Virus record (IMG/VR): IMGVR_UViG_3300021400_001287
Span: 27,209-91,208 of that record
Direction: 5' to 3' (one strand)
Source: a virus
Lineage: Duplodnaviria > Caudoviricetes
DNA: 64,000 nucleotides
Below are positions 20,301 to 51,522 of the stretch, in pieces. Positions within the stretch are counted from its first letter, which is position 1. Every line of letters begins with the position of its first letter. The notes under the pieces were generated by a model, which was given only the letters and a program-made list of their open reading frames with translations, ran no database searches and was not told the DNA's origin. A program made the translations under genes and the position numbers.

Positions 20301-21759
20301 CAATACGCTCTGGGCACGGCAACCTGACTTTTGCCCGATTACAGAATTTGAGCCCCGTATTAAGACGACAATGCCCCTCTAAATTTACCCTACCAAGTAG
20401 TCGTCCGAGCGGAGAAAACGCAAGCACGGTATTGACAATCATTAAATAGCAATAAAGGATGTGAATGGGTTTGATAAAGCTCGATAACGAGTATTTTGTG
20501 ACAGCGGATACGCGGTCGTTTGTGCTGAATCGGAAGTACAAACCCGAAGCCCCGAAGAAGAGCGACCTGAAGCCGAGAGAGACAACTGAATCCGTTGTCG
20601 GGTATTACAGCAACATCGCCCATTTACTTAACGCGTACCGCAAAGAGCAGATGCTCAAGTGGGTCGCTGGTGAGAAACTGACGCTGGAGCAACTGTGTGA
20701 CAGGATCAACGAGATGGACGCGACGCTCACCAAGAAGCTGGCGAAGTTGCAACAGATGGATCTTGGCGACGATGCGAAACCGAGGAGGCGGGGTAAGAAT
20801 GAGAATGCGGAACAGACGGCCTCGTGATGCTTAGTAGCTTTGCGAAGGCAGGTATAACAATAACAATACAACAAACTGGAGGACAAGATTATGATCCATG
20901 TGAAGAAGACCGAAAACGGCGTGATGGGATTTGGTTCGATCGAAACCAAGGAAGACGTTGAGAAGCTGATCAAGAACCTGGTCGAGATTCTGAGTTGTGC
21001 TGAAGAAGAGCCGGAACCCGAAGTCGAACCTGCTCCCAACGATGATCTGTTCGATGCGCTGGTAGATGCGCTCGGCTGGGGCGAAGACGAAGAATGCGAC
21101 TACGATGAGTGCGAGTGCGAGTGTGAAGACGAAGACGCGGACGAAGACGAGCGCGATGGTCTGCCTCACGTCGTGTCTGTCGGCTACACGCATGACTCCG
21201 ACGAAGTGGTGATCATGAACGACCGCGACACCAAGTGGGGTCTTGCGGAAGCGTTTCTGCGTGCTGCCGCGAAAGTGTGGCCTATTGAAGATGGGGAAGA
21301 CGAGAGACTGAAGGGCGCGTTGCTGGAACTGGCGGGTGTTGCCCATGAGCATGTGGACCCCGACGACTGAATTCGACACGGCAACTGAGCCGTTTGTGTT
21401 GCTTGTAGACTGGGGCGGTAGTCTGCGTCTGGTGGAGCGGAAAGCTATTAAGAATGCGACGAAAGCTGGACCGTACTTCATCGGCGTGGACACGCCGCCC
21501 ATCAAACAAGAAATTGTACTGGAGGACAAGAGTCATGACCGAACTTGTACAACAGATCGAGAACCAGTGGATGACCTACAATGCAGCGATAATCAACCAT
21601 TTGCATCCGGACAAGGAGAAGCAGAGGCTGGCGAACATCATGATCAATAATATGACTGATATCCTTGCCGCACTTCGGGCGTACGAACCCGCGACCGACG
21701 TGATCATCACTGGAGATAAAGACGAGCCGCCCCGCAAGACCAGGAAGAAGGCCGACTGA
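14387..21759 (+). other. Cluster of about 25 short rightward middle genes, many with CxxC zinc ribbons
   Basis: ATGA/TGATG-coupled ORFs such as 16104-16379, 16593-16919, 17443-17646, 18909-19283 and 19276-19542; those checked end in TAA/TGA. Confidence 0.8.
15656..16102 (+). CDS. HAD-superfamily phosphatase (Swiss-army-knife RNA-repair-like HAD domain)
   Basis: 'IIFLDVDGVLN', 'VVITSTWR', 'RGDEI', 'YVILDDDSDM'. Confidence 0.85.
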   Translation: MKIIFLDVDGVLNNLLWARRMFDEGVNVFAKDMLEYRAIELLKRIIDATGADVVITSTWRMRAVQMTHLLDQLARFDIYPIAVTPRLNTDRGDEISAWMQHYDVESYVILDDDSDMDEHMDHLVQTSFEHGLQREHVERAIEILNGVN

Positions 21760-22187
21760 TGGCGAGCGTAAAGTTTGAATTGCGGAACGAGGGCAAAGGA
21801 TTGCATGAGTGGGATTACGTCCCGCTTTCTGAACCGAGGATCGTGAAGATGTAGATTGAAAATCGCTCTAAGCTCGACCGCACGTACACAATGAAGCTGT
21901 ATGACAGCAGTCCATTGGTCTCTCAAGGTGTAGCTCCGATGTCCGAGCCGGTTACGGTCACATACTTGGACTTGGATCGTCTCATCAGCAAATGCGAGCT
22001 GACGAAACTGGAGCAGCTCGTCCTGGACTTGTTGATGCGCGGATACACGCGGAGTGATATCCGGGACGACACGAACTTGACAATGGAGACAATTGTTTCA
22101 TTGTTGACCTCGGCAGTTGAGAAAATCGTGGAAATGAACGAGTACGAATGGCACAGAAGTCATAGACAGATACGTCGTGACACATAA
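21759..22187 (+). CDS. Sigma-region-4-like HTH protein, putative late regulator; in-frame TAG at 21852
   Basis: ATG overlaps the upstream TGA; 'IVKM*IENRSKLD' continues in frame into ORF 21891-22187, which ends 'LTKLEQLVLDLLMRGYTRSDI...AVEKI'. Confidence 0.65.
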
Positions 22188-22228: not shown

Positions 22229-22942
22229 ATGGCAAGCACATTGCGCATCGTTGATCTGAATGGAAAAGTCATCAACGTGGTCAAGGGACAAGACCAAACA
22301 TGGCGCGAAGTCGTGTCGAGAGCAAACCTGCCGGCGCGTTTTGAGTTTTGCCTCCGCCATTGGATGAGCGATGATCCCATCGACACGGCGACAGAGGAAC
22401 ACATCAAACAATACCTCGATCGTGTCGGGTATCTGCTCATTCAAGACAAGCCAGATTCGACCATTTTGACAGATTACAAAGAGTTGCGCGATAAAGTGGC
22501 GCTGATCCCTGTGTCTGGGTTGCCCCAGCTAGAGAATTTGTTTTACGGCAGCCTGGACGAAATGACAGATAGCAATGTCGTGCCGGGCAGAGAGTCGTCC
22601 GAGCGGATGACCAAAGTCGAAGCAAAAGTGTATGGCGCGTTGATGCGACCGAAGAAGATCCCGAAGACGATCACGAAGCTGCAAGAGAAGCGCAAGCGAA
22701 TTGATCAAATGCGGGCAACTTATCCTGGCGTCGTGACGGAGTTCATTCGTGTCGACACAAATAATGAGTTTGAGTATCATGGTGTGCGGTATAAGGTTTC
22801 TTGGAAGCAATATGAGCCGAAGGTAGTATGCGGCGATCTGCTGTATGACATGGATCACATCGTGTGCATTATGGCAGATGACGGTGCGCATTTTTACGAC
22901 GAAGATTTCGTCGAGGTAACGGATCACGTCTGTGTGGCGTGA
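22229..22942 (+). CDS. Hypothetical protein immediately upstream of the suppressor tRNA
   Basis: 237-aa ORF with an RBS and no internal TAG. Confidence 0.75.
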   Translation: MASTLRIVDLNGKVINVVKGQDQTWREVVSRANLPARFEFCLRHWMSDDPIDTATEEHIKQYLDRVGYLLIQDKPDSTILTDYKELRDKVALIPVSGLPQLENLFYGSLDEMTDSNVVPGRESSERMTKVEAKVYGALMRPKKIPKTITKLQEKRKRIDQMRATYPGVVTEFIRVDTNNEFEYHGVRYKVSWKQYEPKVVCGDLLYDMDHIVCIMADDGAHFYDEDFVEVTDHVCVA

Positions 22943-22948: not shown

Positions 22949-23028
22949 CGGGGCGTAGTAGAATTGGCATATACGGGGGACTCTAAATCTCCGCCGTTTT
23001 ATGGGTTCGAATCCCATCGCCCCGACCA
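22949..23028 (+). tRNA. Amber suppressor tRNA (anticodon CUA) with a tRNA-Leu-type body
   Basis: Acceptor CGGGGCG/CGCCCCG + A73 + CCA; D arm GTAG-AATTGGCAT-ATAC; anticodon arm GGGGA-CT CTA AA-TCTCC (CTA at 22983-22985); 8-nt variable region; T arm ATGGG-TTCGAAT-CCCAT. Confidence 0.95.
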
Positions 23029-23047: not shown

Positions 23048-24184
23048 ATGGACAGGAATGCGGTATTGGCTATTTTGAATAAAGTGACTGGCGCTTCGGA
23101 TTAGGACTGGAGCGAGATCGCGGAGCTCTATCATCTCGACATGCACCCGGATACCCTGCGTAAAGCTGGTGCCGGTGTGAAGATGGTGGCTGATGCTGGA
23201 CTATTGGCTGTACCGAACACGGAAAATAAATACCGTGACGAATACATCGCGAAGAAGCAATTCTTCGACCAGCGTCGTGAGTACAACGCGGTCTTGGCCC
23301 GAGAAGCACGGGGAGATCATCTGCTGGAGTGTCTGCGTGAGTCGGCTGAGAAGCTGAATGAGCAGATGCCTTTGCTCAATAAAGGTGGAGCATCGACACA
23401 GACTTCGACGACGGAGGCTGTGTTGGTGTTGACCGACTGGCATTACGGTATGGTTGCCAACAACGTATGGAACAAATATGACACGAACATCTGCAAAGAG
23501 CGACTGGAAGAGCTTCGACAAAAGGTTGCCTATAAGCTGGCTCTCCATGATGTGACAATACTCCATGTGTTGGTGTTGGGTGACATGGCGAACGGTGCTA
23601 TCCATGTGACGAGTCGTGTCGCGGCTGAAGAGCACGTGGTAGATCAGCTGATGCAGGTCAGCGAACTTATCGCTGAGTTCGTGGATGACTTGGCCAATCG
23701 AGTACAATACACTCAAATCTATTGCACCTACGGCAATCACATGCGGACGGTCCCGAACAAGAAGGACTCTATCCACGCGGACAATATGGAACGGATTATT
23801 CCGTGGTGGCTGGCACAGCGCTTTAAGACGCGTGACGACGTCGTGGTAGCTGAGACCGGAAAAGACGAGATGCTCCGGGCTGTGGTGTGCGGCGCTGAAG
23901 TTTGCGCGGTGCATGGCGATCTGGATGGTGGCAAAGACGCGGCGCTGGCTCTGAGCCAGATGTACGAGCGGGCTTTCGGTCGGAAGATGCAGTATCTCTT
24001 CACCGGTCACTATCATTCAATGCTCGATACGGAGAACTACGGCATCACGTCGATCCGGGCGGGCGGGATGTGTGGCGTCGATGAGTACGCGAAGAACGCG
24101 CGATTGTTTTCGACACCGTCTCAGACATTGGCAATATTTGATCGTGGCGAGCTGGACGCACTGTATCATATCCGGTTGAGGTGA
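23048..24184 (+). CDS. Metallophosphoesterase/exonuclease (calcineurin-like); TAG at 23102
   Basis: Motifs DWHYG, LGD, GNH, HGD and GHYH; N-terminus MDRNAV...SD*DWSEI is in frame. Confidence 0.85.
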
Positions 24185-24188
24185 TAAC

Positions 24189-25052
24189 ATGGCAAAGAAA
24201 AGTCCTGAAAAGATGTGTCTGCGTTGCCATGAGATCAAGCCGTAGGATGAGTTCTATCACAACCGCGGTTGGGCGGAACAGCAGTACGCTGATACGGTGT
24301 GTCGCGAGTGCGCCAGATCATTGGTGCATTGCAAAGACGACGCTCGTAAATATTGCTGGGATAACAATCGCGTCTGGAATGACAAGATATGGGACGCCGC
24401 CCATAACAAAGCGATGTACATGCTGGCGAACAACAAAGAGTACCTCAGCAAAAATACATCGAAAAAGAGAAAAGACGAAATTGAGCTGGCTTATACGTCA
24501 ACTCAATTTTTTGCTGTCATGAACACCGCGCCGCTGTATCGGTTTGTGGAGAACCGAGACGATGAGTACGATCCGGACTCTGTAGCCGGTACGACCCAGG
24601 AACTCGGCACCACACGGGATGACGACGAACTGGTCTGGAGCGACGAGTGGAATGGCATGTACAAGAAGCGGGAGCTTCGGTATCTGGATGATTATTTCCA
24701 ACGGTTGCAAGATGAATTCGTCATCGACAACGTAAACCGTGAGGACTACGCCCGACGGGTGGCGAAGGCGTCACTGGAAGCCGATAATAAATACCAGAAG
24801 ATGCGGCAGGGCACTGGCACAGCGAAAGAGTGGCAGGAAGCTCAGAGCATGTTTGACATGCTGAGCAAGTCAGCGTCGTTTGCTGAGAGCCAGAGAAAAG
24901 AAGTCGCCAACACGTCGACGAACGCGTTGTCCACTATCATCATGGACATCGAACTCAACCACCACAATGAGATGCCCAAGGTGACATTTGAGAAAGACGA
25001 CATCGATCTCATACTCAGAGACTTTGGCTTTACCGGGGAGGCTATCGCGTAA
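24189..25052 (+). CDS. Zinc-finger protein, probable terminase small subunit; TAG at 24243
   Basis: 'CLRCHEIKP*DEFY...CREC': the two CxxC halves join only by readthrough; directly upstream of terL. Confidence 0.7.
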
Positions 25053-26707
25053 TGCCCCGTATCGATCAAGTTAAAGATATCAAGAATTACGCGCAGTGGT
25101 GGACTCAGATATAGTTCTGGCGGACGCACCTGGACGTGTTTATTCAGCAATACTTCAGTGTGAAGCTGAAAGACACGCAGCAAGTCATCGCGAGAGCGGT
25201 CGGTCTGGCGAGTAACAGTCGGATCGTGAAAAGCCGCGGATATGGCAAAACATGGCTGATCGCCTGGTGCGCTGTGGCGATTGCAATCTTGTATCCCGGC
25301 ACCTCGATCGGTGTCGTGTCGGCCACTGCCGCTCAAGCGACACTGGTCTTGAAAAAGATCAAGAAGTTCACGCGGCAATATTCAATCCTGGCCGGCGAGA
25401 TGGTGTCGACCGGCAAAGACTTCGTTCGTATCTCGAAGGATAAAGGTTACTGTGAGTTTTTGAACGGCTCGTCCATCGAGTCGTTTTCGATCAACCAGGT
25501 TGTTGGTGAGCGTACCAAGGTGCTGATCATTGACGAAGCGCCCAGAGCTAACGAACAGGATATCAAGAAGAACGCCGAGCCGACGCTGAACACAACGCGT
25601 GACTGTTGTATCCAAGGTGGTTACGATGACTTCAGCTCGAAGATCATCTATATTACCTCCGCCTGTTTGAAGAGTAACTTCTTCTACAGGGACTTCGTGA
25701 AAGCCTATGAAGCGATGCGGAGTGGCGACCCGACATCATTTGCGTGTGTGTTGAATTATCAGAGCGCCGTGCGATGCGGGTTGACGAAAGCCAGTTATTT
25801 TGAAGGTCGGAAGAAAGCGTTGCCGGAGAGCGTATTTGCCACGGAATATGGCAGTTACTTCCTCGGCGCTGAAGCCGGTACGCTGTTCCCGTTCGACTTG
25901 ACGGACACCGTGCGGACACTTCGCCGCGTTGAAGCGAAACAGCCGAAGAACAGCAAATGCTGGTACATCATATCTATTGACTTGGCCAGTTCCGATGCGA
26001 AGGGCGCGGACAACGCTGTGCTGGTGGTCATCAAGTGCGTGGACAAAGAAGACGGCACCGTGATGAAGAACGTGGTGTACATCCGATCGTATCACGGCTG
26101 GCGACTGAACGCGTTGGCAAATGAAGTGCGCAAAGTCTATGTTGCGTTCCCCGGAACAGTGCGTATTATCTACGACGCGAAGGGATTGGGCTTTTCGTTT
26201 GCACAATTCTTCTCCGAGCCGTGGATCGACGACGCAACCGGTAAAGAGTATGAGCCGTGGACAGACGAGCATACCGCGATCCCCGGCGCGAATCCAATAT
26301 TGTTTGCCTTCAAAGCGACGCCGGTGTTGAATGTGCAACTGGTATCTACGTTGCGCGTGGCGTTGGAGCAAAAAACAGTGGCGTTCCCGGTGCCAAGCAC
26401 GGATATCGACGACGTGATGGTGTCGGAGGAAGATGACGACGAAGGCGAGAAGATCGTCCGGCTGTCGATGGAGGAGAGTGCCATTTATCTGGAGGCCGAC
26501 GCTTTGCAAGTGGAGCTTGGATCCATCGTATCAAAGAGTACGATGGCCGGCAACGTCGTTTACGATACCGAAAAGAAAAATCAACACAAAGACAGATACT
26601 CGGCGCTGGCGATGGGCGTATGGTACATCAGCCAGGTCGAGGACGATAATAAACGCCGGTTGCGGAACCGGGGCAATGCTTGCATTGGCATTGTTGACAG
26701 CTTTTGA
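25052..26707 (+). CDS. terL: Terminase large subunit; TAG at 25112
   Basis: Walker A 'SRGYGKT', Walker B 'LIIDEA', nuclease 'SIDLA' and 'HKDRYSALAM'; ATG overlaps the upstream TAA. Confidence 0.93.
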
Positions 26708-26721
26708 TGGGAGGAAAAAGT

Positions 26722-28302
26722 ATGGCGGCATTTTGGAGACGGGGGAATAAGACGCAGCCCGTTGAGCCCCCGAAAGTCCGTCCCGCCGTATGCGTGAGCG
26801 GCGAGGAAGCCAAGGTTGATGTTGGGCTGACTTATGACAACTCCAATATCACGATGGCAGCTTGGATGCCCGGAGTGGACTACCGCGCCATTCTGATGGA
26901 CAAGCAAGCGCACATCTATGACCTGTACGCCTAGGCGGACTACTTCGTCGACGCGGATCCCATTTTTCGTGGCATCATCAAAGGTGTTTACACGCCGTTC
27001 AGTGTTTCTGAATGGCGGTTGGAGGGCACCAATGACCGGGTCAAGGAAAAATACGAAGACTATTATCTGCGCATTCACTTGCGGGATAAGATGTGGTCGA
27101 TCTTTTATCAGTACTTCAAGTATGGGCAAGTGTTCGTTTACTTGAAGGATGATGGAGATATTATTACATTGCCGCCTCATCGGTGTCGTATTGCGAACGT
27201 GATGGTGGCTGGCGAACCCATTGTGGAGTTCAATGCGTTGCAGGTGGCCATTGACCTTGGCTATCGCAAATACGATTCGCTCCAAAAATGGTTAGAGGAC
27301 GACAAATTCGAGGTGAGGATGAGAGGCTATCCCCCCGAAGTAACGACCGCCCTGAAAGATGGCAAAGAGTGGGTTCAGCTGAACCCGATGAGGACGTTCG
27401 TTTTGCAGGACATCAAAGAAGACTGGTTGCGATATGCTATACCATTGATCGCGGCGGCACTGCTTGCGCTTCAGAAAAAAGCCATGATCTCGAATTACGA
27501 GAACTCGACTTTGAATATGATGGTGCATAGCTTCCTCCACGTCCAGTACGGTGACGCGACCAAGAACGCTGATTTCCTGCCGAACCAAAACGAGCTTCAA
27601 GCTCTGAACACTCTGTTCAAAGCGGCCATGTCGAAGAATGGCACTGGCATCGCGACCACGAACGTGTTTGCGAAAGCACAGTTCATTCAGCCGGACATCA
27701 ACGACCTGTTCGACAACGACCTGTACTCCAATGTCAACAACGAGATTCTCTCGGCTGGCGGCATCAGCGGTATCATCGTGAACGGGTTGGCAGAAGACGG
27801 ATCGAGCTTCGCCAGCGCTCAAGTCTCCATGCAGACGGCGGCGTTGCGCATCAAACAAGCGCGGGACAACTTCTGTGAATTAATGAACAAGATCAACGTG
27901 CGTCTCAACGGCGGCATCCTGCCTCGGAGCAAAGACGAGAACGTGCCTACGTTCAAGTTCCCGCCGGTTGATCTGACGGGGAGCGGTAAGTTCTATGAGA
28001 CTTGCCTCAACCTGTGGAAATAGGGCGTGCTGAGTACCCGGACCATGATGGACGCTCATGGGTTCGACATGGAGCAGGAATTCAGACGGCGCACCGATGA
28101 AGACGATAGCGGCGTTACGAAAACCATGTCGCCACGTCAAGAGACGCAAAACGAGGAGAGCGACACAAACCAAAGCACCGACACCGACGTCAGCAAAAAG
28201 GTCGGTCGACCGACACTTACCAATGACGAACGGCAAAGCGATCCGGCTGATGCTTTGACTGGACGGCAACCGAAACCGAGCTCTCCGGATGGATCACTTT
28301 AA
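26722..28302 (+). CDS. Portal protein; TAGs at 26932 and 28021
   Basis: Three same-frame ORF fragments separated only by TAG; ~526 aa, located after terL; GGAGG RBS. Confidence 0.85.
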
Positions 28303-28353
28303 TCACACTGTCGGCTCCTCCTAGCCGACGGAATGATAAATGAGGTGGCAAAC

Positions 28354-29664
28354 ATGCAGAAATTTGTTATGGCCGCTTCGGACATTTCTCTGGATTATCC
28401 GCAGAGTAATGAAATTTACTTTTCTGTAACAATGCGGATGCTGACAACGGAAACCAACTAGAATGGCGTCCGTCTGACCGCTGGTTTTATCGACGATATT
28501 GCAACGCATGCGGAAGAATATGTATGTATGCCGCTGTGTGCCGACGTGGATCGGCTGGCTCGCGGCTTGGACATCGGCCTCACTCACATGTATGATGAGC
28601 AACGGCAGGTGTTCGAAGCGCCGCAGGTCGGCAGTTTTTTTGAGGTGCATAGAGAAGACGACGAGCACGGAGTTAGCTTGGTCGGCACGGCTAGAATTAA
28701 CAAGCGCAATGCCAATGTGACTGATAAGATCATCGAGATGTTCAACACCAACCGGCTCAAGTTCAGCTTTGAAATTTGGGCGAGTGAGGTGTACGAAGAG
28801 GACGGAGTGACGGTGGTTGACGCCGCGCCGGGTAACCGGTTGACGGCGATGGCTATCGTTACCACGCCGGCTCTCCCCGCTGCTGTGGCTCTGAACCTGG
28901 CGGCGGAGGTGGATATTGACGCGTTCCGTGGCAAAGTCTATGACTTGCTGTGGACGAAGTATCCGAGCGAGTGCTGGAACGTTGTCTGGATGGGTTTGGA
29001 TTACGCCGTTATTTACTTTTCTGAGCACGGCAATATGGTACGCATTGCGTATCGTATGGATGGTGACAAACTCGTCGAGACGGAGGAATACGAAGTTGGC
29101 TTCGCACGAATTGACGAGGTGAGTGACAACATGAATATTACGCTGGCAACCGCCGAGGTGACCAACGTGGAGACCCCCGATGTGAACGAGGTGTCCGCTG
29201 TTGCCGATGCGGTTATCAATACTGACACAGTGGAGACTCCCGCTGTGGAAACCGAGACTGCTGCTTGCGGCGATCCCGAAAACGCGGCTTGCGATGACAA
29301 GACGGCGGAGGTCGAAAACGACATCGATGACGACATCAAAGACGAGTCGGACGACGATGCCCATGACCTGGAAGAGATGCGTCGAGAGCTGGAGCGCGTG
29401 AACGCTGAACTGGCTCGATACAAGGCGGCTGAAGAAGCTGCGAAGATGGCGGAGAAGCGTGCCGCCGCAAAAAAGTACGCGGAGCGTGAACACCTGAATC
29501 TGGAAGCGGAAGACGTTAAAGCGGCGATCGATAACGCCGACTATGAAGCGCTTGCTGCTGCCGTGATGGCGAAGCCCGCGGACGACAAGAATGAAGAAGC
29601 CTACCGTGTTACCGCGGAGATCAAGCTGTCTCCCTATGGCAACATGTTCGAGAAGGCGAACTGA
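28354..29664 (+). CDS. Prohead protease/scaffold; TAG at 28459
   Basis: 'N*NGV', 'FSFEI', acidic coiled-coil C-terminus; GAGGTG RBS. Confidence 0.8.
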
Positions 29665-29678
29665 GGAGGATATGCAAT

Positions 29679-30116
29679 ATGGCTGGTTACATGACTAAGC
29701 TGGTCGGCTCTGATGGCATTTACGACGGCAGCTACAAGGCTGGCGAAGTGCTGACCAATGGTATTTTTGTCAACATCGCTGCGGATGGCACCGTGAAGAA
29801 GCTCACCGGCGCTGGCAGCATCGAGATGCGCGTTCGCGAGAAGACCACTCTGTGGGGTCTGCCCGCTGTGATTCTGGACGTCGTCCTTGAGGGCGATGGT
29901 ACTGCGTACTTTGTGGAGCAGGTCGAGCCCGGCGTTCGTGAAGAGTGGAACGACATCGCGAATGAGATCAAGATCGGCGAGTTCGTGCGTATGCACAAGC
30001 CTCTGCTGGGCGAGCAGCTGATCATGAGTGTTACTTCCGAAGTGCTGGCGACTCTGGCTGAGGGCGACACTGCGAAGCCCGCTGCCGGTGGTACCATTGC
30101 GAAGAAGTCTGCCTAA
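29679..30116 (+). CDS. Capsid decoration/stabilising protein (probable)
   Basis: 145 aa between scaffold and capsid genes; strongly biased codon usage. Confidence 0.6.
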   Translation: MAGYMTKLVGSDGIYDGSYKAGEVLTNGIFVNIAADGTVKKLTGAGSIEMRVREKTTLWGLPAVILDVVLEGDGTAYFVEQVEPGVREEWNDIANEIKIGEFVRMHKPLLGEQLIMSVTSEVLATLAEGDTAKPAAGGTIAKKSA

Positions 30117-30131
30117 GGAGCGTGAAATATA

Positions 30132-31127
30132 ATGGAAACCATCACCAAGGACATGAATATTGTTAAGGCGTAGGCTGCTGACGCCCGCCACGAGTCTCTT
30201 GACTCTAACGTCCGCGAGAACATGAACAAGGTCGTTCATGAGCTGGCAGCGGATCGTAACCCCATGAACCTGTATCAGATCGGTCAGCTGATGGCCTTCA
30301 CTGTTGAAGAGCTGGAGCGCCCCATGACCAACTGGCTGGATCTCGTTGCCGATCATAAGCGCATTGGCGCTGGCGACGAAGCCGCTTTCCGCACCACCGC
30401 GAACGGCATCCGCGCCGTCATCCAGGCCAAGGCTGGCACCACTCCCCGCAGCCGCGTTGCCGACAAGCAGATTGTCGTTGACACCGTTGCCGTGTCTGTG
30501 CGTCCCGCTGTGAACCTGCTTGAGCTGGCCTCCGGTAAGATCAACTTCGGTGACCTGGCCATGTATGCCGCTGTCGAGCTGGCCAACAAGAAGACTCAGT
30601 ATGTGCAGCAGGTGCTCGACGCCGCCGCGACTTCCTTCGCCTCTCCTTTCTACGGCTCTGGCGCTGGTATCGTTGCCGCGACCTTTGATCCCATGGTGCA
30701 GCACTGGATGCGCACCGGTGGCGCTGCGATTATCGGTGACATCGCTGCCGCACAGAAGCTGGCTCCTCTGACTGGCTTCACCGCCTCCACCAACTCTCAG
30801 TGGGGCAATGGCATTATCGAGGAGTTCAATCGCACTGGCCGCATTGGCACCTACAAGGGCGCCCAGGTTGTGCAGACTGTGAACCCCTATCTGCCTGACG
30901 ACGTGACCCCTGTGCTGAATATCAGCAAGCTGTATATCGTGCCCACCACGATGAACACTGATGCCCGCAGCCTGAAGGTCGTCGAGCAGGGTGGCGTGAT
31001 CTCCGTGGAGAACACTTCCATCAACGAGCTGACCTACGAGGTCCGCATGGACGAGCACTTTGGTGCCGCCGTCGTGTACGGTGTGCAGCCCACTGTGTCC
31101 GTGTACTACGACTCTACTCTGGGTTAA
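30132..31127 (+). CDS. Major capsid protein; TAG at 30171
   Basis: RBS AAGGAG; METITKDMNIVKA*AADARHE is in frame with the 301-aa ORF; highly biased codons; followed by hairpins (~31138-31198). Confidence 0.88.
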
Positions 31128-31227
31128 TGCTAAATGTTGGTCGGCAGAGAGACCTTAAACCTCTGACCATCGGCGGGGCTCTTTACTGAGCTCCGCCTAC
31201 TATTTATGCGAAAGGTGAAGGTTTGAT

Positions 31228-31656
31228 ATGGCTGACAGGGTACGAATTATCAACGAGAGCACGCATGATGTCGGTCTCGTTAATCAGAATGGCATTGAAT
31301 ACAACATCCGTCCTGGCACGTTCATCACGTTGACGAAGGACGACTGTGAATATATGGTGGCAATTGCTCCGAAGCTGTTTGCCCGTGAAACACGTGGTGC
31401 TGAACTGCGCATCGACAATGAAGAGCTGGCGAAGGATTTGAATATTGTTGCGCCCGGTGATCCAACACCGGCTTCTGAATCGGTCATCCGGAAGGCGTTA
31501 GGCGGCTCGGTGAACTCGATCAAGAAGTATGTTGCCGAGATCGAAGATGCGTACACCATTGACGCGATTGTTCAGGTTGCGCACAAGATGGATCTTCCGG
31601 TGAGCAAAATGAACGTGCTCAGGGAAGCCTTCCCGAACAAGTTTATCAACGACTAA
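31228..31656 (+). CDS. Hypothetical head-associated protein
   Basis: 142-aa ORF after the capsid gene. Confidence 0.7.
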   Translation: MADRVRIINESTHDVGLVNQNGIEYNIRPGTFITLTKDDCEYMVAIAPKLFARETRGAELRIDNEELAKDLNIVAPGDPTPASESVIRKALGGSVNSIKKYVAEIEDAYTIDAIVQVAHKMDLPVSKMNVLREAFPNKFIND

Positions 31657-31673
31657 AAGTGGGGTGCAGGGCG

Positions 31674-32111
31674 ATGACAGATTAGACGACATGGATGGAC
31701 GACCTGTATCTGGATGTCCAATGGCAACGCATCCCCGTGGCGATGACGAAGATCGAAGAGATGCAACTCCTGTCTCGTTGTTTTGTACACGGCCTCGAAT
31801 CTATGTTTATCGCCACTGGCAAAGCGATGCAATTTGACGCGGACTGGCTGACGTTTTCGGACGAAGGCGTGCTTGTCTCAACGACCCAGGACTTGAAAAT
31901 AGACGAGCTCCGGTACGCGTTTTTGAAGGCGAAAATCGAATTCTTCAAGCGGGTCCAAACTGACGTGAACAACATCGTTGGCTACACCACCGACGCTTTG
32001 ACTGTGACAAACGCGGACAAACCGTATCAAAACTTATCACAGACGATCGAAGGTCTGGAGAAAGAATTGCGTCAGATTTTCTACACGATGATCCGACATG
32101 CTTATCTGTGA
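31674..32111 (+). CDS. Head-tail adaptor (probable); TAG at 31683
   Basis: MTD*TTWMDDLY...; assigned by position. Confidence 0.6.
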
Positions 32112-32121
32112 GGTGAGCGGG

Positions 32122-32379
32122 ATGATTGTGAAAGAAACACTTGCGACACGAAGCGGAGGCAAACAAGTCGTCATGACGCCGTTCAACGACTATTGCGATC
32201 ATCTGAGGGTGGACGTATTCAAAGCGCTTGGCGACGTCGAAGCAATGTGCGAGATGATGACTGGACAGTGTCGATGCGATTGGACAGAAAATGAAGTCGA
32301 AGCGTATAGCAAAGTGCGGTCGCGGCTTTTGAACCTGGCTGGCGCTGTGGCGCGTTAGCCCCAGAACTAGGAGGGGTGA
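32122..32379 (+). CDS. Small hypothetical protein; TAGs at 32356 and 32368
   Basis: Readthrough gives 'AVAR*PQN*EG' ending in TGA just before the next ATG. Confidence 0.6.
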
Positions 32380-32381
32380 CG

Positions 32382-33122
32382 ATGCAGAAACCAGCGGTCG
32401 TGCCGGCGAACTAGACGCCGAGCAATCGGACTTTTTACTAGCCGCCCACCATTCAGAGTGACTATACAAATTTGCTATGGCAAGATCATCCGCATTTCAC
32501 AGAGACGTTTGAGCTGGTCCATAGTTGGATTGAACATTTGCGTACAGATGACCCTTAGTATATTCGCGCTACGTACTTCCCTGTTGACTGGAAGAGTAAG
32601 GTCGGCAATTCCGACGCGAGCGCGAACTTCAAGACGGATTGGAACAATCTGATCTGGAAAGGGGACTATATCATCCGCGATGGCGGGGAGATATTGCTTC
32701 TTACTTGGGATGTCAAAGAGCACATGAACAACCAAGCGACACAGGCTCAGATATGCAATTTGAAGCTGACGCTGGTTCGGCATGTTCAAGCTCAAGCAGA
32801 TGAGCGCGGCTTCATGGAAGTACCGGCTCATGACGAGTATGTGCTTTATGAGCACCCGGCGACGTTCTCGCCGTACGCTGGTCGCCCGGACTACATTGCG
32901 ACGGCGAACGTGCCAGGTATCAATGCAGACGCTTTGATGAGCGGACAAATCCAGTTCAATGAAGAGACGAAGAAGATGACCATTAACGACGAGTTTGAGT
33001 ACGGCGGATTTACGTATCGACTGATCAACGTGGACTGGTCTGAAGTCAACTACGATAACACGGCTGGCATCATCAATTTCAACTGTAAACGAGTGGCAGG
33101 TGGTATGAATGCTCCAGATTGA
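32382..33122 (+). CDS. Head-closure-like protein; TAGs at 32412, 32439 and 32556
   Basis: GGAGGGG RBS + ATG 32382, in frame with ORF 32694-33122; readthrough fills an otherwise empty ~300-bp gap. Confidence 0.7.
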
Positions 33123-33675
33123 TGAAGCGGCTGATTTCAAGTTCAATTCTTCGACTCTGATGAATCGGTTGCGGCCAGTTCTTGTACCCGCTATTGAAAC
33201 GGCGGCAGATCAATATATCAAAAAAATGGGGCAACACGCCAAAGAAACGACAGCGGTTGGCAAAACGGGGCAAGGAGCTCCCGGCGCTCGGGAATGGCGT
33301 TCAGATGTCGGTAATGACCTAAAACGCATGAACCTTCAAGTGTCCGTTGATGCCATTGAAATTGATGTTGGTATCTATGGTGATGAATCTTTGCAAAAAC
33401 GCGTTGAAGTCATCAACACTGGTTCTGGTAATAAAGCTGGTGGGGCAGCAATGGAATATGGCCCCTATGGTCGTAGTGTTTGGAACGACGATTTAAGCGG
33501 GCGGACCACTAGCAAGACGACACGAACTGGAGATATGCCGGATGGATTCAACAATACCGGTAACCAATTTGCTCAGAAAGCCAAGGATGAAATGGAGAAT
33601 GAAAAAGAGCGGATTGTGCAACACGCGTTGCGCCATATATCACCAACATTGTTGGAAGGTGTTATTCATCAGTGA
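33109..33675 (+). CDS. Neck/tail-completion protein (probable)
   Basis: 188-aa ORF; assigned by position. Confidence 0.55.
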   Translation: MLQIDEAADFKFNSSTLMNRLRPVLVPAIETAADQYIKKMGQHAKETTAVGKTGQGAPGAREWRSDVGNDLKRMNLQVSVDAIEIDVGIYGDESLQKRVEVINTGSGNKAGGAAMEYGPYGRSVWNDDLSGRTTSKTTRTGDMPDGFNNTGNQFAQKAKDEMENEKERIVQHALRHISPTLLEGVIHQ

Positions 33676-33690
33676 AAGGAGGAGAGCCCA

Positions 33691-34161
33691 TTGATCGTGA
33701 CAAAAAGCTGGGCGGATAGATGGAACGATATCCAGCGCGATGTGCTCTTCCCCGATGAAGAGCTCAAGCAGTTGATGATGATTCCGGACGGCACGAACAT
33801 CGTGACATGGATCCGGAAGTATTTCGTTTCAGAGGCGCTTTGCACCGAGTTGGTGACAGATGAAGATGTCCGTGTGCTTTGGTATGAAGATCAGAGTTCA
33901 CATACAAACAACCCGTTGATCAACAACCGCAAGATGTGCTTTGATATATATGTGAAACAAGCCCACAACAACGACGCAACAAACGACTTATTCGTTAGCC
34001 GTGGAAAACTCATTGCGCAAAAATTACAAGAGATCTTGACATTCCCGGCGACTGTTGGGCGTGTAAAATTTTTCTATGTCGACGACTACGACGTCGGCAC
34101 AAAGATGGTCGGATACGTACGACACCATTTGGTCGTGTCGTATCTGGCTGGACATGCGTAA
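33691..34161 (+). CDS. Tail terminator (probable)
   Basis: 156-aa ORF with TTG start and GGAGGAG RBS, preceding the major tail gene. Confidence 0.55.
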   Translation: MIVTKSWADRWNDIQRDVLFPDEELKQLMMIPDGTNIVTWIRKYFVSEALCTELVTDEDVRVLWYEDQSSHTNNPLINNRKMCFDIYVKQAHNNDATNDLFVSRGKLIAQKLQEILTFPATVGRVKFFYVDDYDVGTKMVGYVRHHLVVSYLAGHA

Positions 34162-34234
34162 TAACAACACAGCCAGCGATAGGAGGAGCCGACTGTGACG
34201 TTATATATCGACTCTTATTAAGGAGGAAAACTGT

Positions 34235-35074
34235 ATGGCTTATATTAAGACCCCTATGGGCTTTGTGTCCAACGCACCTCATATTTAGTTCCAGCGTTGT
34301 GACGGAGCTCGCTTTTACAGCGATACCGGTACTGCTGGTAGCATGACCAATACGGACAACTCGACCGCTGTTTACGGTGGCTGGGCGAAGTCTCCTATCG
34401 GTTATATTGAGGGCGACTCCACCATGGAAATTTCTTACACCGACGCGATGTTCTATCAAGACATGTTCTCCGTGTCCAGCGCCGGTACTGAGGTGACCAC
34501 GAAGGATACCGCGGTGCGTGGCGGCGGCGTTTACACCGTTAAGACCGGTCCGATCGTCGAACTGCCGTTCCAGGTGAAGCTGGACACCATTCAGATTCAC
34601 GGCTTTGATGTGTAGGGTACTGGCACCGCCGCTGCTGGTAAGCCTGTTGCCGCGTATGACAGCACCAACAAGAAGACTACGATTACCTTTGCTTCTGGCG
34701 ATGTGGCGGTTGGCGACGACCTGATCGTGACTTATGAGCGCCGTGTGGCCAGCGCCGATGTGGCTACGATTACCACTAATGGCAGTTCTTCTCGTGGCAG
34801 TCTGACGATGACTTGGGCTGTTATGAGCGATGGCAGCGACTGCTCTCAGGCTTCGATCGTTGGTTTCCTGCATCTGCAAGTGCCTCGCGTCATGGTTACC
34901 ACCCGTGCGTCTCTGGACACTTCCCGCGGCACGGCTGCGACACCTAATATCGTGTTTGCTGCCATCGACGCCCACCGTGGTGATCAGAAGTGGTACGATC
35001 TGATTTGGGAACCCCTGGAGGATGGTGCTATCAGCACTGATTACGCCGAGGGCGACTTTGTTTGGGATATTTAA
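34235..35074 (+). CDS. Major tail tube protein; TAGs at 34286 and 34613
   Basis: AAGGAGG RBS; three in-frame fragments; biased codons; terminator hairpin at ~35083-35114. Confidence 0.8.
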
Positions 35075-35131
35075 CCCGACAGATGGGGCTGGGTAACACC
35101 AGCCCCTTTATTTTGTAAAGGAGAGGTCACG

Positions 35132-35880
35132 GTGAAGGTTAAGAAGGTACCGGATATTGGCATGGCGGAGAAAGAACTGCCGATGGTTGGCGCACCGGAG
35201 AACACAGTTACTGTGGCGGGGTCGCTGATTGAAATCAAGCCGACCAAGCTCAAGTATTTGCGCAACGGAACGGCGAATTTTTTTCGGCTCATCGAACGGA
35301 TGAGCATACTCGACATTGTGCAATTGCCGTCTGGCGCGTTCGGCGAAGATGACGATCGTGATGGTGACAAAGCCATGATGGATTGGCTCATTGCCGCGAC
35401 GGATAACCCGGAGTTTGTGCAAGAACATTACGATGAATTTGACACAGAGCAGATCCTGCGCGTGTGTGATATTTTTAAGCGAGTCAACAAATTCGTGAAA
35501 GAAGACGACTCAAAAAACGCAGTAACCCCGGCGGAGGCATAACGATCGACCGGGGAATGGCGCTCATTGCCGCGCATCTGGGCATTATAGACGAAGATGC
35601 AATTTTGGACATGACCTTTGACTGGTTTAACGAAGTGCTCGAAGTATTGGGTGAAGTGGTAAACTACAACGCCGTGGTGAATTACGCGGGCAACTCATTC
35701 TGCGAAAAGTCGTGGGACATGATCCTGGATAACAATCCGATGTTGAAGGGGCAGATACTGACATCTGACCAGCGTTCGTGGGAACAGTTTTTCAACACGG
35801 CAAAAATTCGGACGATAACCAAAGGAGAACGGAAAAATGGAGAAGAAAATGGTGGTTTTGGGGCAGGAGGTTTCGGTTAA
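35132..35880 (+). CDS. Tail assembly chaperone pair (G/GT-like) joined by a -1 frameshift
   Basis: ORF 35132-35542 has the slippery site A AAA AAC (35512-35518) and a downstream CCCCGG...CCGGGG stem; the -1 frame is open to 35880. Confidence 0.8.
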
Positions 35881-36376
35881 AAACCACGTCGGCTATCAAC
35901 AGAAGATGGACGCGGCGGAGGAGTATGTTGCGATGTCGGCAGTGTTCGATGAAGAGCATGGGCTCTGCTATATGTCTCCGTATGAAGAAGCCGTGAAGAA
36001 ATACATGAAGCTCAAGACGTATACTGGACTTGACATGAGCAACTACAACGGCATCGACGGTCTGTGCCGATTGATGGACGACATCGACGAGGTGCCCATC
36101 GACGAGTTCGAAGGATTCGTTGACGACGACTGGGTGATCATTTACAACCTGGCTTACGTGATCTATTGTAACGTGTCGGATGTGTTCGAAAAAGAGCATT
36201 CTCTTGAACATCGCGTTAAGACCAGTTTCGGTTTCCTGCTGGACGGTAAAGACTTGACTCAGACATTGGCGGAAGCGCGTGAAGTCAACGAGCAGATGAT
36301 CGACCATCTCGGCGCGATCGCTAAGACGAAAACACAGCCTATCGATATGGCGCAGTATGCAAAGAAGCGCAAGTAA
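35837..36376 (+). CDS. Hypothetical tail-region protein
   Basis: 179-aa ORF with AAGGAG RBS. Confidence 0.7.
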   Translation: MEKKMVVLGQEVSVKNHVGYQQKMDAAEEYVAMSAVFDEEHGLCYMSPYEEAVKKYMKLKTYTGLDMSNYNGIDGLCRLMDDIDEVPIDEFEGFVDDDWVIIYNLAYVIYCNVSDVFEKEHSLEHRVKTSFGFLLDGKDLTQTLAEAREVNEQMIDHLGAIAKTKTQPIDMAQYAKKRK

Positions 36377-36399
36377 TATGAAGTGAGGAGTGACGCTGA

Positions 36400-42300: not shown

Positions 42301-42792
42301 GTTGTCAACCAGTCGGCGTTTGATGGTGCAAAGAAAAGAGCTATGGAATACTGGTCGAAATACGGTGGCAATATGGCTCCGATTATTTTGCAACAAATTG
42401 CCGCCGCGACAATGACAAAGCCGGGTAAATATTTGAGACCAGGAACGCCGCTTTACGAATATAAGACCGGTGGCATGAGTATGACAACCGGTCTGGCATG
42501 GCTGGACGGCACCAAGTCTCGACCAGAGCGCATTCTGTCTTCGTATCAGACCGAACTGTTTGAGGACATGATCAACACGTTACACCAGATCCGGTCTGTG
42601 TCGACTGGTGGTATTATGTCTGCACCGAAACTGGCTGCTGGCAGCATGCTTCCGAACATCGACACAATTAACATCACGGTGGAGCAACTGAATAGTGACA
42701 CCGATTATGACGACGCCGCGGAACGGCTGGTGGGCGCTTTTTATAAGAAAGTCGCTCGGACCAGACCCGTTGGTGGTATTCAAGGATGGTAA
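36400..42792 (+). CDS. Tape measure protein (~2130 aa); TAGs at 36418 and 36445
   Basis: TP901-like TMP core, hydrophobic segments and long coiled coils; GAGGAG RBS before ATG 36400. Confidence 0.93.
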
Positions 42793-42846
42793 TACGGGAG
42801 GAGTTCTTCGGAGCTCCTCCTCGCTCTCATTAAAGGAGGATGACAC

Positions 42847-49099: not shown

Positions 49100-49112
49100 A
49101 GGAGGGCTCGAT

Positions 49113-51508: not shown

Positions 51509-51522
51509 GAGGGTGAATTGAG

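What the first reader, a model, noticed from the sequence alone, without database searches (positions are those of the whole stretch)
22949..23028. Phage-encoded amber suppressor built on a tRNA-Leu scaffold, placed at the entrance to the late module
Seen: a complete cloverleaf with CUA anticodon and CCA. It has A73, a 3-bp D stem with G13.A22, A14-A15, G18G19-C20-A20a and U48. These match bacterial tRNA-Leu features and not tRNA-Gln (G73, weak 1-72 pair). The loop CT-CTA-AA is one substitution from Leu(CAA). Established: bacterial LeuRS largely ignores the anticodon, so the host enzyme could charge it and no phage synthetase would be needed (none is seen in this window). The 8-nt variable region is unusually short for a Leu tRNA. 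The gene lies 20 bp upstream of the run of TAG-containing packaging and structural genes. This independently supports Leu as the TAG residue.
Basis: partly seen in the sequence, partly recalled or inferred. Interest (0 to 1): 0.92.

Follow-up and report, generated by a model that had tools for sequence, protein, structure and literature searches.

The report
Phage amber suppressor tRNA reading TAG as leucine
A 91-kb uncultured gut-type phage carries a real, conserved tRNA with a CUA anticodon built on a leucine-tRNA body. Its late genes use the stop codon TAG where relatives have leucine, a stop-to-leucine recoding that the phage papers I could search do not report (they give only glutamine and tryptophan).

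Summary
ARAGORN and Rfam both call a tRNA with anticodon CUA at 22949-23028 (+), with encoded CCA, ending 19 nt before the first TAG-containing gene.

Seven related phage contigs, found through the portal protein, carry the same tRNA at the same place. Thirteen distinct family members show 98% pairing and compensatory changes in 18 of 20 stem pairs. The anticodon loop, the D loop, U48 and A73 do not vary.

The body carries the E. coli-type leucine identity set: A73, U8-A14, A15-U48, G18G19 with A20a, and a 3-bp D stem with G13/A22. In a panel of 83 tRNAs this D-arm motif occurs only in tRNA-Leu and in these suppressors. Three relatives keep a true long variable arm; the window's copy has 8 nt.

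TAG behaves as a leucine codon. Of 50 columns where one genome has TAG and another a sense codon, 34 are mainly Leu and none mainly Gln. Two conserved columns in distant standard-code homologs are Leu in 100/105 and 80/105 sequences.

No synthetase or release factor gene is in the phage record, so charging by host LeuRS is inferred, not shown. TAG codons cluster in the first 25 codons of late genes.

Verdict: a new variant of phage stop-codon recoding.

The parts
22949..23028 (+). Amber suppressor tRNA, anticodon CUA, leucine-type body, 8-nt variable region, encoded CCA
   Evidence: ARAGORN. Rfam RF00005 at 50.3 bits. Conserved at the same place in 7 relatives. Covariation in 18 of 20 stem pairs.
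22983..22985 (+). Anticodon CTA (reads UAG), inside the invariant loop CUCUAAA
   Evidence: The loop is invariant in 13 distinct family members.
22229..22942 (+). 237-aa ORF of unknown function that ends 6 nt before the tRNA. It has no in-frame TAG and is syntenic in the relatives.
   Evidence: No Pfam or PHROG match.
21759..22187 (+). 142-aa ORF with TAG at 21852 (codon 32); weak PHROG 'sigma factor' match
   Evidence: The TAG is conserved as TAG in 6 relatives. phrog_5767, E = 1e-08. No Pfam match.
23048..24184 (+). First gene after the tRNA: exonuclease/phosphoesterase-like, TAG at codon 19 (23102)
   Evidence: phrog_284, E = 6e-58. Weak Metallophos match. The TAG column is TAG in 6 relatives and Leu in L001.
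25052..26707 (+). Large terminase, TAG at codon 21 (25112)
   Evidence: Pfam Terminase_6N and phrog_2. The column is Leu in 5 relatives and in the 8 closest database homologs.
26704..28302 (+). Portal protein, TAGs at codons 77 (26932) and 440 (28021)
   Evidence: phrog_2739. Codon 77 is Leu in 100 of 105 homologs. Codon 440 is a variable column.
30132..31127 (+). Major capsid protein (YonB family), TAG at codon 14 (30171)
   Evidence: PF27364 in the homologs. The codon is TAG in all 7 relatives. Standard-code homologs have L 29, A 24, M 7, I 2, V 2, F 1.
43950..46604 (+). Tail protein (Prophage_tail domain), TAGs at codons 257, 365 and 727
   Evidence: Pfam PF06605. Codon 257 is Leu in 80 of 105 homologs.
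55711..57084 (+). Endolysin-like gene (TAG at codons 51 and 171), followed by a small ORF that may be a holin (my guess; PHROGs list its families as unknown function) with TAG at codons 3 and 19
   Evidence: PHROG endolysin families. TAG positions.
23048..57335 (+). Late module: 28 ORFs. 19 of them carry 29 in-frame TAGs in total, and none ends in TAG.

Best explanation
The gene encodes a functional amber suppressor tRNA of leucine identity.

**Origin (inferred).** It is a tRNA-Leu whose anticodon is CUA instead of CAA and whose long variable arm has shrunk to 8 nt.

**Charging (inferred).** Bacterial LeuRS reads A73, the U8-A14 and A15-U48 tertiary pairs and the G18G19/A20a geometry, and does not read the anticodon. 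The host enzyme would therefore charge this tRNA with leucine. No phage synthetase is involved.

**Decoding (supported by comparison).** The charged tRNA reads UAG as leucine in the exonuclease-like, packaging, head, tail and lysis genes that follow it.

**Role (inferred).** These genes carry 29 in-frame TAGs. Twelve of them lie in the first 25 codons, so without the suppressor translation stops after a short peptide. The tRNA thus acts as a single switch, or gate, for late and lytic functions. The large replication genes and the integrase read normally in the host's standard code.

**Shown here:** the tRNA, its conservation and covariation, its Leu-type features, TAG/Leu equivalence in alignments, and the absence of a synthetase or release factor gene.

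**Not shown:** the charging enzyme, the timing of tRNA expression, and the gating role.
For: **1. A real and selected tRNA.**
- Rfam scores it at 50.3 bits.
- The same gene lies at the same place in 7 relatives that were found through the portal protein, not through the tRNA.
- Across 13 distinct sequences, 98.1% of cells are paired and 18 of 20 pairs have changes on both sides. None of 500 shuffles reaches this, and slid controls give 38-51% paired.
- The anticodon loop, G13-A15, G18G19C20, U48 and A73 are invariant.

**2. A leucine body.**
- The D arm matches the tRNA-Leu genes of a Clostridiales genome nearly base for base: GAAUUGGCAUA here against GAAUCGGCAUA in its Leu(GAG).
- The motif occurs in 7 of 13 tRNA-Leu and 0 of 57 other tRNAs.
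- Three related CUA tRNAs of 84-85 nt keep a base-paired variable arm, as in class II tRNA-Leu.
- The same phage has a 76-nt tRNA(CAA) with an identical D loop, and a 78-nt tRNA(UAA) with a similar one. Both have A73.

**3. Published identity rules.**
[quoted passage not shown] Truncated forms remain active (PMC9976931).
- A natural short-arm tRNA-Leu is charged in Streptomyces (PMC6614811).

**4. TAG = Leu.**
- Portal codon 77 is Leu in 100 of 105 homologs.
- Tail codon 257 is Leu in 80 of 105 homologs.
- At 36 columns where a relative has TAG, the window has L 26, I 4, M 1, Y 2, and T, H, D once each. Background Leu is 6.8%, giving P = 6e-23.
- Over 50 mixed columns, the BLOSUM62 sum is L +133, I +74, M +68 and Q -87.
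- TAG exchanges with CTG, TTG, CTT, CTC, CTA and TTA roughly in step with their usage.

**5. No alternative machinery.** Searches for PF00133, PF13603, PF00749 and the RF-1 domain find nothing in the 91-kb record, while the control genomes are positive.

**6. The gate.**
- 12 of 29 TAGs lie in the first 25 codons, P = 8e-08.
- TAG is almost never a true stop: 1 of 54 ORFs in the replication arm and 2 of 26 in the early region.
- The large replication genes have no in-frame TAG. The integrase has none if it starts at the standard-code GTG at 58893.
Against:
- tRNAscan-SE isotype models were not available.
- The long variable arm, the hallmark of bacterial tRNA-Leu, is missing from this copy.
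- PMC6614811 reports that E. coli LeuRS charges only long-arm tRNA-Leu when offered the Streptomyces short-arm species. The host enzyme may therefore need special features.
- U35 of any CUA anticodon is a GlnRS determinant in E. coli, and this copy has G2-C71 and G3-C70, so some mischarging cannot be excluded.
- Several TAG columns are variable or polar: portal 440 (E/K/Q), tail 727 (N/D/S), and 34613.
- The host is unknown.
- Raw sequence identity to host tRNAs does not separate Leu from Ser(CGA).
- The record is only 75% complete by CheckV, although it has terminal repeats. A synthetase elsewhere in the genome is unlikely but not excluded.
Confidence: 0.85

Rival explanations
1. The tRNA is charged with glutamine, as in genetic code 15 of crAss-like and Lak phages. 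GlnRS would recognise U35 of the CUA anticodon, as it does for many E. coli amber suppressors.
For: TAG to Gln is the reassignment reported for TAG-recoded phages (10.1101/2021.08.26.457843; PMC9523058). This copy has G2-C71, G3-C70 and G10. The one identified host genome of a related suppressor has a GlnRS-type domain. Five of 105 portal homologs have Q at codon 77.
Against: Gln is the majority residue in 0 of 50 mixed columns, and its BLOSUM sum is -87 against +133 for Leu. Only 1 of 54 codon pairs opposite a window TAG is a Gln codon. A73 is invariant instead of G73. The 1-72 pair is G-C or C-G, never U-A. The 2-71 and 3-70 pairs vary freely.
Confidence: 0.03
2. Decoding is ambiguous or partial. 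The tRNA is charged mainly with Leu but also by other synthetases, or it competes poorly with release factor 1. TAG sites would then give a mixture of residues and truncated products, and the low yield would itself be the regulatory point.
For: No release-factor gene or anti-RF function is seen in the record. Several TAG columns tolerate many residues. The short variable region departs from the canonical LeuRS substrate (PMC6614811).
Against: TAGs sit in strongly conserved Leu columns of essential proteins such as portal codon 77 and tail codon 257. The major capsid protein, needed in hundreds of copies, has a TAG conserved in all 8 genomes. That argues for efficient and accurate decoding.
Confidence: 0.08
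3. The inserted residue is another hydrophobic amino acid (Ile, Met or Val) rather than Leu.
For: Ile is the window residue at 4 of the 36 columns where a relative has TAG. Column 24243 is I/V/L in the relatives. A published isotype prediction assigned some phage suppressor tRNAs to Ile (PMC10879173).
Against: Leu outnumbers Ile 34 to 5 as the majority residue. The tRNA lacks the class I D arm seen in the tRNA-Ile and tRNA-Val genes of the panel, and has the Leu-specific motif. IleRS, MetRS and ValRS depend on the anticodon (established knowledge, PMC9976931).
Confidence: 0.03
4. It is a pyrrolysine tRNA, as ARAGORN labels it, or a decayed gene in a defective prophage whose TAG-interrupted genes are pseudogenes.
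For: ARAGORN prints 'tRNA-Pyl'. Under the standard code the late genes are fragmented.
Against: The label follows from the anticodon alone. The tRNA has canonical G18G19, a TTCGAAT T loop and an 8-nt variable region, unlike tRNA-Pyl (my knowledge of tRNA-Pyl). No synthetase of the three families searched is present. Only TAG interrupts the genes, never TAA or TGA. The interruptions are conserved across 8 genomes with intact flanking protein sequence. The tRNA shows compensatory evolution.
Confidence: 0.01

Closest known systems
Suppressor-tRNA-driven stop-codon recoding in gut phages and prophages (code 15, TAG to Gln; code 4, TGA to Trp; Borges et al., 10.1101/2021.08.26.457843; Peters et al., PMC9523058)
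   Same: A phage-encoded suppressor tRNA is present. In-frame recoded stops are concentrated in structural and lysis genes. TAG is depleted as a true stop. The integrase and replication genes are readable in standard code. The phage is temperate (it has an integrase) and its host is presumed to use the standard code.
   Different: The residue is Leu, not Gln or Trp; that preprint states that only those two reassignments were seen in phages whose code differs from the host's. The tRNA body is tRNA-Leu-like. No theta ribozyme follows it: there are only 19 nt to the next gene, and Rfam finds nothing else there. No release factor or synthetase gene is present.
E. coli supP (Su6) amber suppressor: tRNA-Leu with anticodon CAA changed to CUA; also laboratory suppressor forms of phage T4 tRNA-Leu (from my own knowledge, not checked here)
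   Same: A leucine tRNA with anticodon CUA that inserts Leu at UAG, because LeuRS ignores the anticodon. It is one base change from Leu(CAA).
   Different: Those are mutants of class II tRNAs with a long variable arm, found by genetic selection, and they act as weak suppressors in a standard-code genome. This one is a natural, conserved gene with a shortened variable region, serving a genome that uses TAG as a sense codon.
Type I (short variable loop) tRNA-Leu(CAA) of Streptomyces coelicolor (PMC6614811), and animal mitochondrial tRNA-Leu
   Same: A tRNA of leucine identity without the long variable arm, charged by a single bacterial-type LeuRS. U8-A14 and the D/T elbow are important.
   Different: The Streptomyces tRNA reads a sense codon and has a 5-nt variable loop, and its LeuRS does not use A73. 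Here A73 is invariant, the loop is 6-9 nt in the short-arm family members that encode CCA, and the anticodon reads a stop codon.
UAG to Leu codes outside phages: chlorophycean and Scenedesmus mitochondria (NCBI tables 16 and 22), chytrid mitochondria (PMC6131824), phyllopharyngean ciliates (PMC11687900)
   Same: The same codon takes the same new meaning.
   Different: Those are whole-genome codes of organelles or eukaryotic nuclei. This is a virus that recodes part of its genome inside a host that is presumed to use the standard code.

Membership tests
tRNA (Rfam RF00005) | Cloverleaf scoring above the curated gathering score | tested here: met
   50.3 bits against a cut-off of 29, E = 8e-08. 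ARAGORN also calls it.
Bacterial tRNA-Leu (E. coli-type LeuRS identity set) | Discriminator A73 | tested here: met
   A73 is present and invariant in 13 distinct family members. All 4 tRNA-Leu of the Clostridiales genome have A73.
Bacterial tRNA-Leu (E. coli-type LeuRS identity set) | U8-A14 and the A15-U48 Levitt pair | tested here: met
   U8, A14, A15 and the last variable-region base U48 are invariant. They are named as determinants in PMC9976931 and PMC6614811.
Bacterial tRNA-Leu (E. coli-type LeuRS identity set) | G18G19 in the Leu register with A20a, in a 3-bp D stem closed by G13/A22 | tested here: met
   The motif GAAUNGGC(A/U)NA is in all family members; A20a is in 10 of 13 and U in 3. 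The motif occurs in 7 of 13 tRNA-Leu and 0 of 57 other tRNAs.
Bacterial tRNA-Leu (E. coli-type LeuRS identity set) | Long, base-paired variable arm (class II architecture) | tested here: not met
   The window copy has 8 unpaired nt. Three related CUA tRNAs of 84-85 nt do have a paired arm. The literature says the arm is dispensable for E. coli LeuRS (PMC9976931), but see PMC6614811 for a contrary case.
Bacterial tRNA-Leu (E. coli-type LeuRS identity set) | Is aminoacylated with leucine | not testable with these tools
   This needs an aminoacylation assay or mass spectrometry. Indirect support: TAG aligns with Leu.
tRNA-Gln / code 15 suppressor | G73, a weak U1-A72 pair, and Gln at recoded positions | tested here: not met
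   The tRNA has A73, and the 1-72 pair is C-G or G-C. Gln is the majority residue in 0 of 50 columns.
tRNA-Pyl | Atypical body (very short D loop without G18G19, 3-nt variable loop, no TψC consensus) and linked pyl genes | tested here: not met
   G18G19 and the TTCGAAT T loop are canonical, and the variable region is 8 nt. No synthetase of the three families searched is in the record. The tRNA-Pyl features come from my own knowledge.
Phage stop-codon recoding with a late-gene bias (Borges model) | In-frame stops of one kind only, in structural and lysis genes; suppressor tRNA present; that codon depleted as a terminator | tested here: met
   There are 29 in-frame TAGs in 19 of 28 late ORFs and none of TAA or TGA. 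TAG is a stop in 1 of 54 and 2 of 26 ORFs elsewhere. The large replication genes have none.

The most novel reading that the evidence does not exclude
This is a natural UAG-to-leucine genetic code in a clade of temperate, SPbeta-like gut phages. It is run by a miniaturised tRNA-Leu that the host LeuRS charges. The amber codons sit deliberately at the 5' ends of late, lysis and perhaps regulatory genes, so that one tRNA gates the lytic programme. It would be the first stop-to-Leu recoding known in any virus or bacterium. It would also show that synthetases which ignore the anticodon, such as LeuRS, are a general route to viral code change. Long-arm Leu-type CUA tRNAs in other phages and in a Clostridiales genome hint that the route was taken more than once.
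Probability: 0.75. Interest if true: 0.85.

Novelty: new variant of a known kind. Interest (0 to 1): 0.8.

Why it matters
Phage stop-codon recoding has so far been described as TAG to Gln and TGA to Trp. The explanation given was that GlnRS and TrpRS are unusually easy to hijack.

A conserved TAG to Leu system would show a second logic. Any synthetase that ignores the anticodon can be used, by a single base change in a phage tRNA. LeuRS is one such enzyme; AlaRS and SerRS are others in principle.

It has a practical side. Gene callers that offer only codes 11, 15 and 4 will put the wrong residue into these phages' proteins.

It also gives a natural, compact amber suppressor scaffold of 78-80 nt, with a set of covarying natural variants. 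That is of interest for genetic code engineering and for asking what bacterial LeuRS needs from the variable region.

The strong 5' placement of the TAG codons makes the idea of a code switch as a lytic gate directly testable: delete the tRNA, or supply it in trans.

Tried and rejected
1. **TerL scan of IMG/VR.** The search for related loci with TerL as a single protein found no confirmed relative. Relatives were reached through the portal protein instead.

2. **Cultured relatives.** tblastn of the portal against 50,697 deposited phage genomes gave no match, so there is no cultured relative to lean on.

4. **'Hosts lack GlnRS, hence Leu'.** Rejected. The one host genome identified for a related suppressor has a GlnRS-type domain.

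5. **Nearest neighbour by raw identity.** Comparison with host tRNAs was uninformative, because Ser(CGA) ties with Leu(CAA). A feature motif was used instead.

6. **Other suppressor groups.** A six-frame all-against-all comparison gave a noisy mix of residues from non-coding frames. After restricting to the longest ORFs, the long-arm group gave Leu in 8 of 17 partly redundant columns, and the 76-nt group gave only one usable column. This is suggestive only.

7. **Single-sequence fold.** The MFE structure is not a cloverleaf. I disregarded it in favour of the covariation evidence.

8. **Promoter and terminator scan around the tRNA.** It gave only weak promoter-like hits inside the upstream ORF, and a false 'terminator' that is the anticodon arm. 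No transcription model could be built.

9. **Reading as a prophage with host flanks.** Rejected. The upstream arm holds phage replication genes and the record has terminal repeats.

10. **Literature.** Searches for phage TAG-to-Leu found nothing. The library lacks most subscription journals, so this is not proof of absence.

Full report
**1. The observation**

The stretch 22949-23028 (+) is called a tRNA with anticodon CTA by ARAGORN. Rfam's tRNA model matches it at 50.3 bits against a gathering score of 29, E = 8e-08.

Reading the sequence against the Rfam alignment and the ARAGORN drawing gives these features:
- acceptor stem CGGGGCG/CGCCCCG, so the first pair is C1-G72;
- U8, A9;
- a 3-bp D stem GUA/UAC flanked by G13 and A22;
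- D loop A14 A15 U16 U17 G18 G19 C20 A20a U21;
- anticodon stem GGGGA/UCUCC and loop CUCUAAA;
- an 8-nt variable region GCCGUUUU ending in U48;
- T arm AUGGG-UUCGAAU-CCCAU;
- A73 and an encoded CCA.

The gene ends 19 nt before the ATG at 23048 of the next ORF, and a purine-rich ribosome-binding stretch lies between them.

The single-sequence MFE fold is not a cloverleaf. This is usual for tRNAs.

**2. What the window is**

The window is part of a 91,208-base virus record with direct terminal repeats, estimated 75% complete by CheckV.

The arm upstream of the window, and its first 10 kb, holds phage replication genes:
- a DnaE-type polymerase with an intein;
- a polynucleotide kinase/phosphatase fused to an RNA ligase;
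- a split NrdD;
- ThyX;
- a primase-helicase.

From 23048 to 57335 the + strand carries:
- an exonuclease-like gene;
- large terminase;
- portal;
- a YonB-family capsid protein;
- a tape measure protein;
- tail proteins;
- an endolysin-like gene;
- a small ORF that may be a holin (my guess only).

A tyrosine integrase lies on the other strand at 57736-58932. Pfam families on the relatives (YonB, YomX, YomW, YomU) point to SPbeta-like phages of Bacillota. No deposited phage genome matches the portal.

**3. In-frame TAGs**

With TAG read through, the late region gives 28 ORFs. Nineteen of them hold 29 in-frame TAGs in total, and every one ends in TAA or TGA. Under the standard code the portal falls into three pieces and one tail protein into four. 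Full-length homologs of 520-530 residues align across the breaks.

TAG is almost never a terminator elsewhere in the genome: 1 of 54 ORFs in the replication arm and 2 of 26 in the early region. The large replication genes contain no TAG. The integrase contains none if it starts at the standard-code GTG at 58893.

**4. Which residue TAG stands for**

I fetched seven contigs that carry close portal relatives and compared all late ORFs codon by codon.

*Window TAGs against the relatives.* Where the window has TAG, the relatives have TAG or, overwhelmingly, Leu:
- 25112: L in 5 relatives;
- 26932: L in 4;
- 28459: L in 6;
- 31683: L in 4;
- 24243: L, V, I, I, I, I.

*Relatives' TAGs against the window.* At 36 columns where a relative has TAG and the window a sense codon, the window residue is L 26, I 4, Y 2, and M, T, H, D once each. 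Leu makes up only 6.8% of these proteins, so the binomial P is 6e-23.

*All mixed columns together.* Over all 50 mixed columns, Leu is the majority residue in 34 and Gln in none. A BLOSUM62 sum ranks L (+133) far above I (+74), M (+68) and Q (-87).

*Codons opposite TAG.* They are CTG, TTG, CTC, CTT, CTA and TTA, roughly in step with their usage. So TAG behaves as a seventh leucine codon, not as a recent TTG mutation. It supplies 29 of 833 leucine codons in the late genes.

*Distant standard-code homologs.*

| Site | Residues in homologs |
|---|---|
| Portal codon 77 | Leu in 100 of 105 |
| Tail codon 257 | Leu in 80 of 105 |
| Capsid codon 14 | L 29, A 24, M 7, I 2, V 2, F 1 |
| Terminase codon 21 | Leu in the eight closest homologs |

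Some TAGs lie in variable or polar columns (portal 440, tail 727). That is expected for any codon.

**5. The tRNA is a conserved family with a leucine body**

All seven relatives have a CUA tRNA at the same place, between a roughly 237-aa ORF and the exonuclease-like gene. These were found through the portal, so the tRNA's presence is an independent observation.

A pattern search then found further members in IMG/VR, in metagenomes and in one Clostridiales genome from the human gut. In all there are 13 distinct sequences.

On their alignment, 98.1% of cells pair and 18 of 20 stem pairs show changes on both sides. None of 500 shuffles reaches this, and slid controls give 38-51% pairing.

The invariant positions are T8, G13, A14, A15, T16, G18, G19, C20, the loop CTCTAAA, U48, the T-loop core and A73. 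The first pair switches between C-G and G-C, and pairs 2-71 and 3-70 vary. The acceptor stem is therefore not the conserved signal.

The conserved set is the one published for E. coli LeuRS: A73, A14, A15-U48, G18G19 and A20a. The anticodon and the long arm are dispensable (PMC9976931; listed also in PMC6614811).

In the Clostridiales genome that hosts a related suppressor, the four tRNA-Leu genes carry the same D arm. Its Leu(GAG) has GAAUCGGCAUA against GAAUUGGCAUA here, and no other isotype has this arm. In a panel of 83 distinct tRNAs the motif occurs in 7 of 13 tRNA-Leu, 0 of 57 others, and all the suppressors. Only six of the suppressors were found independently of the motif.

Three family members are 84-85 nt long with a base-paired variable arm, so they are ordinary class II leucine-type tRNAs with a CUA anticodon. 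The window's 8-nt region looks like a shortened form.

The same phage also encodes a 76-nt tRNA(CAA) with an identical D loop and A73. A 78-nt tRNA(UAA) of similar build is there too. The phage therefore appears to rely on short-arm leucine-type tRNAs for sense codons as well. The suppressor's anticodon is one base away from CAA.

**6. Who charges it**

No class I synthetase domain of the Leu/Ile/Val type, no LeuRS-specific domain, no Glu/GlnRS domain and no release-factor domain is found in the record. The control genomes all give hits. Charging by the host LeuRS is therefore the simplest reading, but it is an inference.

The literature supports it in general: minimal E. coli tRNA-Leu without the long arm remains active (PMC9976931). 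It also gives a warning. E. coli LeuRS did not charge the natural short-arm tRNA-Leu of Streptomyces, whose own LeuRS uses a special leucine-specific domain (PMC6614811).

The idea that hosts lacking GlnRS force the choice of Leu did not hold. The Clostridiales genome has a GlnRS-type domain.

**7. How it probably works**

Twelve of the 29 TAGs lie within the first 25 codons of their genes, against 6% expected (P = 8e-08). Ordinary Leu codons show no such bias.

Several of these early TAGs are conserved. Capsid codon 14 is TAG in all eight genomes. A 142-aa ORF two genes upstream of the tRNA has a TAG at codon 32 that is kept in six relatives. That ORF has a weak PHROG 'sigma factor' match.

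Without the suppressor, translation of most late and lysis genes would end after a short peptide. With it, they are read through as Leu. This fits the published model of recoding as a gate on lytic functions (10.1101/2021.08.26.457843), here in a phage that has an integrase.

I could not establish when the tRNA is made. The promoter and terminator scan was uninformative and no read data could be obtained.

**8. Comparison with what is known, and novelty**

Phage suppressor tRNAs and stop-codon recoding are known. The reports I could read give TAG to Gln and TGA to Trp. One states that only these were seen in phages whose code differs from the host's (10.1101/2021.08.26.457843; also PMC9523058, PMC11210395).

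A survey of suppressor isotypes lists Gln, Trp, Ile and Tyr, not Leu (PMC10879173). UAG to Leu is known in some mitochondria and ciliates (PMC6131824, PMC11687900).

Leucine-inserting amber suppressors are classic laboratory mutants (supP of E. coli, T4 tRNA-Leu forms). That statement rests on my own knowledge.

I found no report of a natural phage UAG-to-Leu code, or of a short-arm leucine suppressor. The library omits most subscription journals.

I therefore class this as a new variant of a known kind.

**9. Earlier notes of this scan**

None of these had been checked. My results agree with them. They are not independent evidence.

Noticed in passing
L008:16623-16698 (-) and L008:17036-17113 (-) (same phage record, upstream of the window): Two more leucine-type tRNAs without a long variable arm. 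One is tRNA(CAA), 76 nt, with a D loop identical to the suppressor's, C at position 33 and a G1-U72 pair. The other is tRNA(UAA), 78 nt. Both have A73. The phage seems to keep a whole set of short-arm tRNA-Leu.
   Followed up: partly
L008:18379-18452 (-) and L008:18114-18189 (-): One tRNA has an 8-nt anticodon loop, which ARAGORN reads as the four-base anticodon 'caaa' (Rfam 48.8 bits). Another has anticodon AUA and a mismatched acceptor pair. Both are unusual and unexplained.
   Followed up: no
L008:6242-8473 (-): A 744-aa protein combines a kinase (AAA_33), a phosphoesterase and a T4 Rnl1-type RNA ligase. This is an RNA (tRNA) repair enzyme, in a phage that depends on its own tRNAs.
   Followed up: no
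L008:10342-14040 (-); L008:2711-3811 and 4440-5756 (-): The DnaE-type polymerase has an intein-splicing domain. The anaerobic ribonucleotide reductase NrdD is split into two ORFs with a 194-aa ORF between them, probably an intron or a homing element.
   Followed up: no
window 21759-22187 (+), TAG at 21852: A 142-aa ORF upstream of the tRNA has a weak PHROG 'sigma factor' match, and an amber codon at codon 32 that is kept as TAG in six relatives. A regulator may itself be gated by the suppressor.
   Followed up: partly
window 30171 (capsid codon 14): This TAG is conserved as TAG in all seven related genomes, including L001, whose portal has no TAG at all. It may be the oldest or most strongly selected amber site.
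   Followed up: partly
L010:3078-3161, L013:12053-12137, L022:1498-1581 (-) and identical copies in L012, L023-L025, L030, L033, L034: These are CUA tRNAs of 84-85 nt with a full leucine-type body, including a paired variable arm. They occur in other viral contigs and in a Clostridiales MAG (HRGM_Genome_3369). In the few usable columns TAG aligns with Leu in about half, so TAG to Leu may occur in further phage lineages.
   Followed up: partly
L014:1781-1856 (-), L031:5498-5573 and copies in L015, L018, L029, L032, L035: A third group of 76-nt CUA tRNAs has the same D arm but no encoded CCA. It always sits next to a tRNA-Lys(UUU), inside large tRNA clusters of 80-100 kb viral contigs.
   Followed up: no
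window 60116-60192 (-): A tRNA-Thr(UGU) (Rfam 68.5 bits) lies about 1.2 kb from the integrase gene (57736-58932). It could be a phage tRNA or part of the attachment site. L001 has a tRNA-Thr(UGU) next to its suppressor.
   Followed up: no
window 10001-12000: G+C drops to 36% where the coding strand switches from - to +. This is probably the divergent control region of the phage.
   Followed up: no
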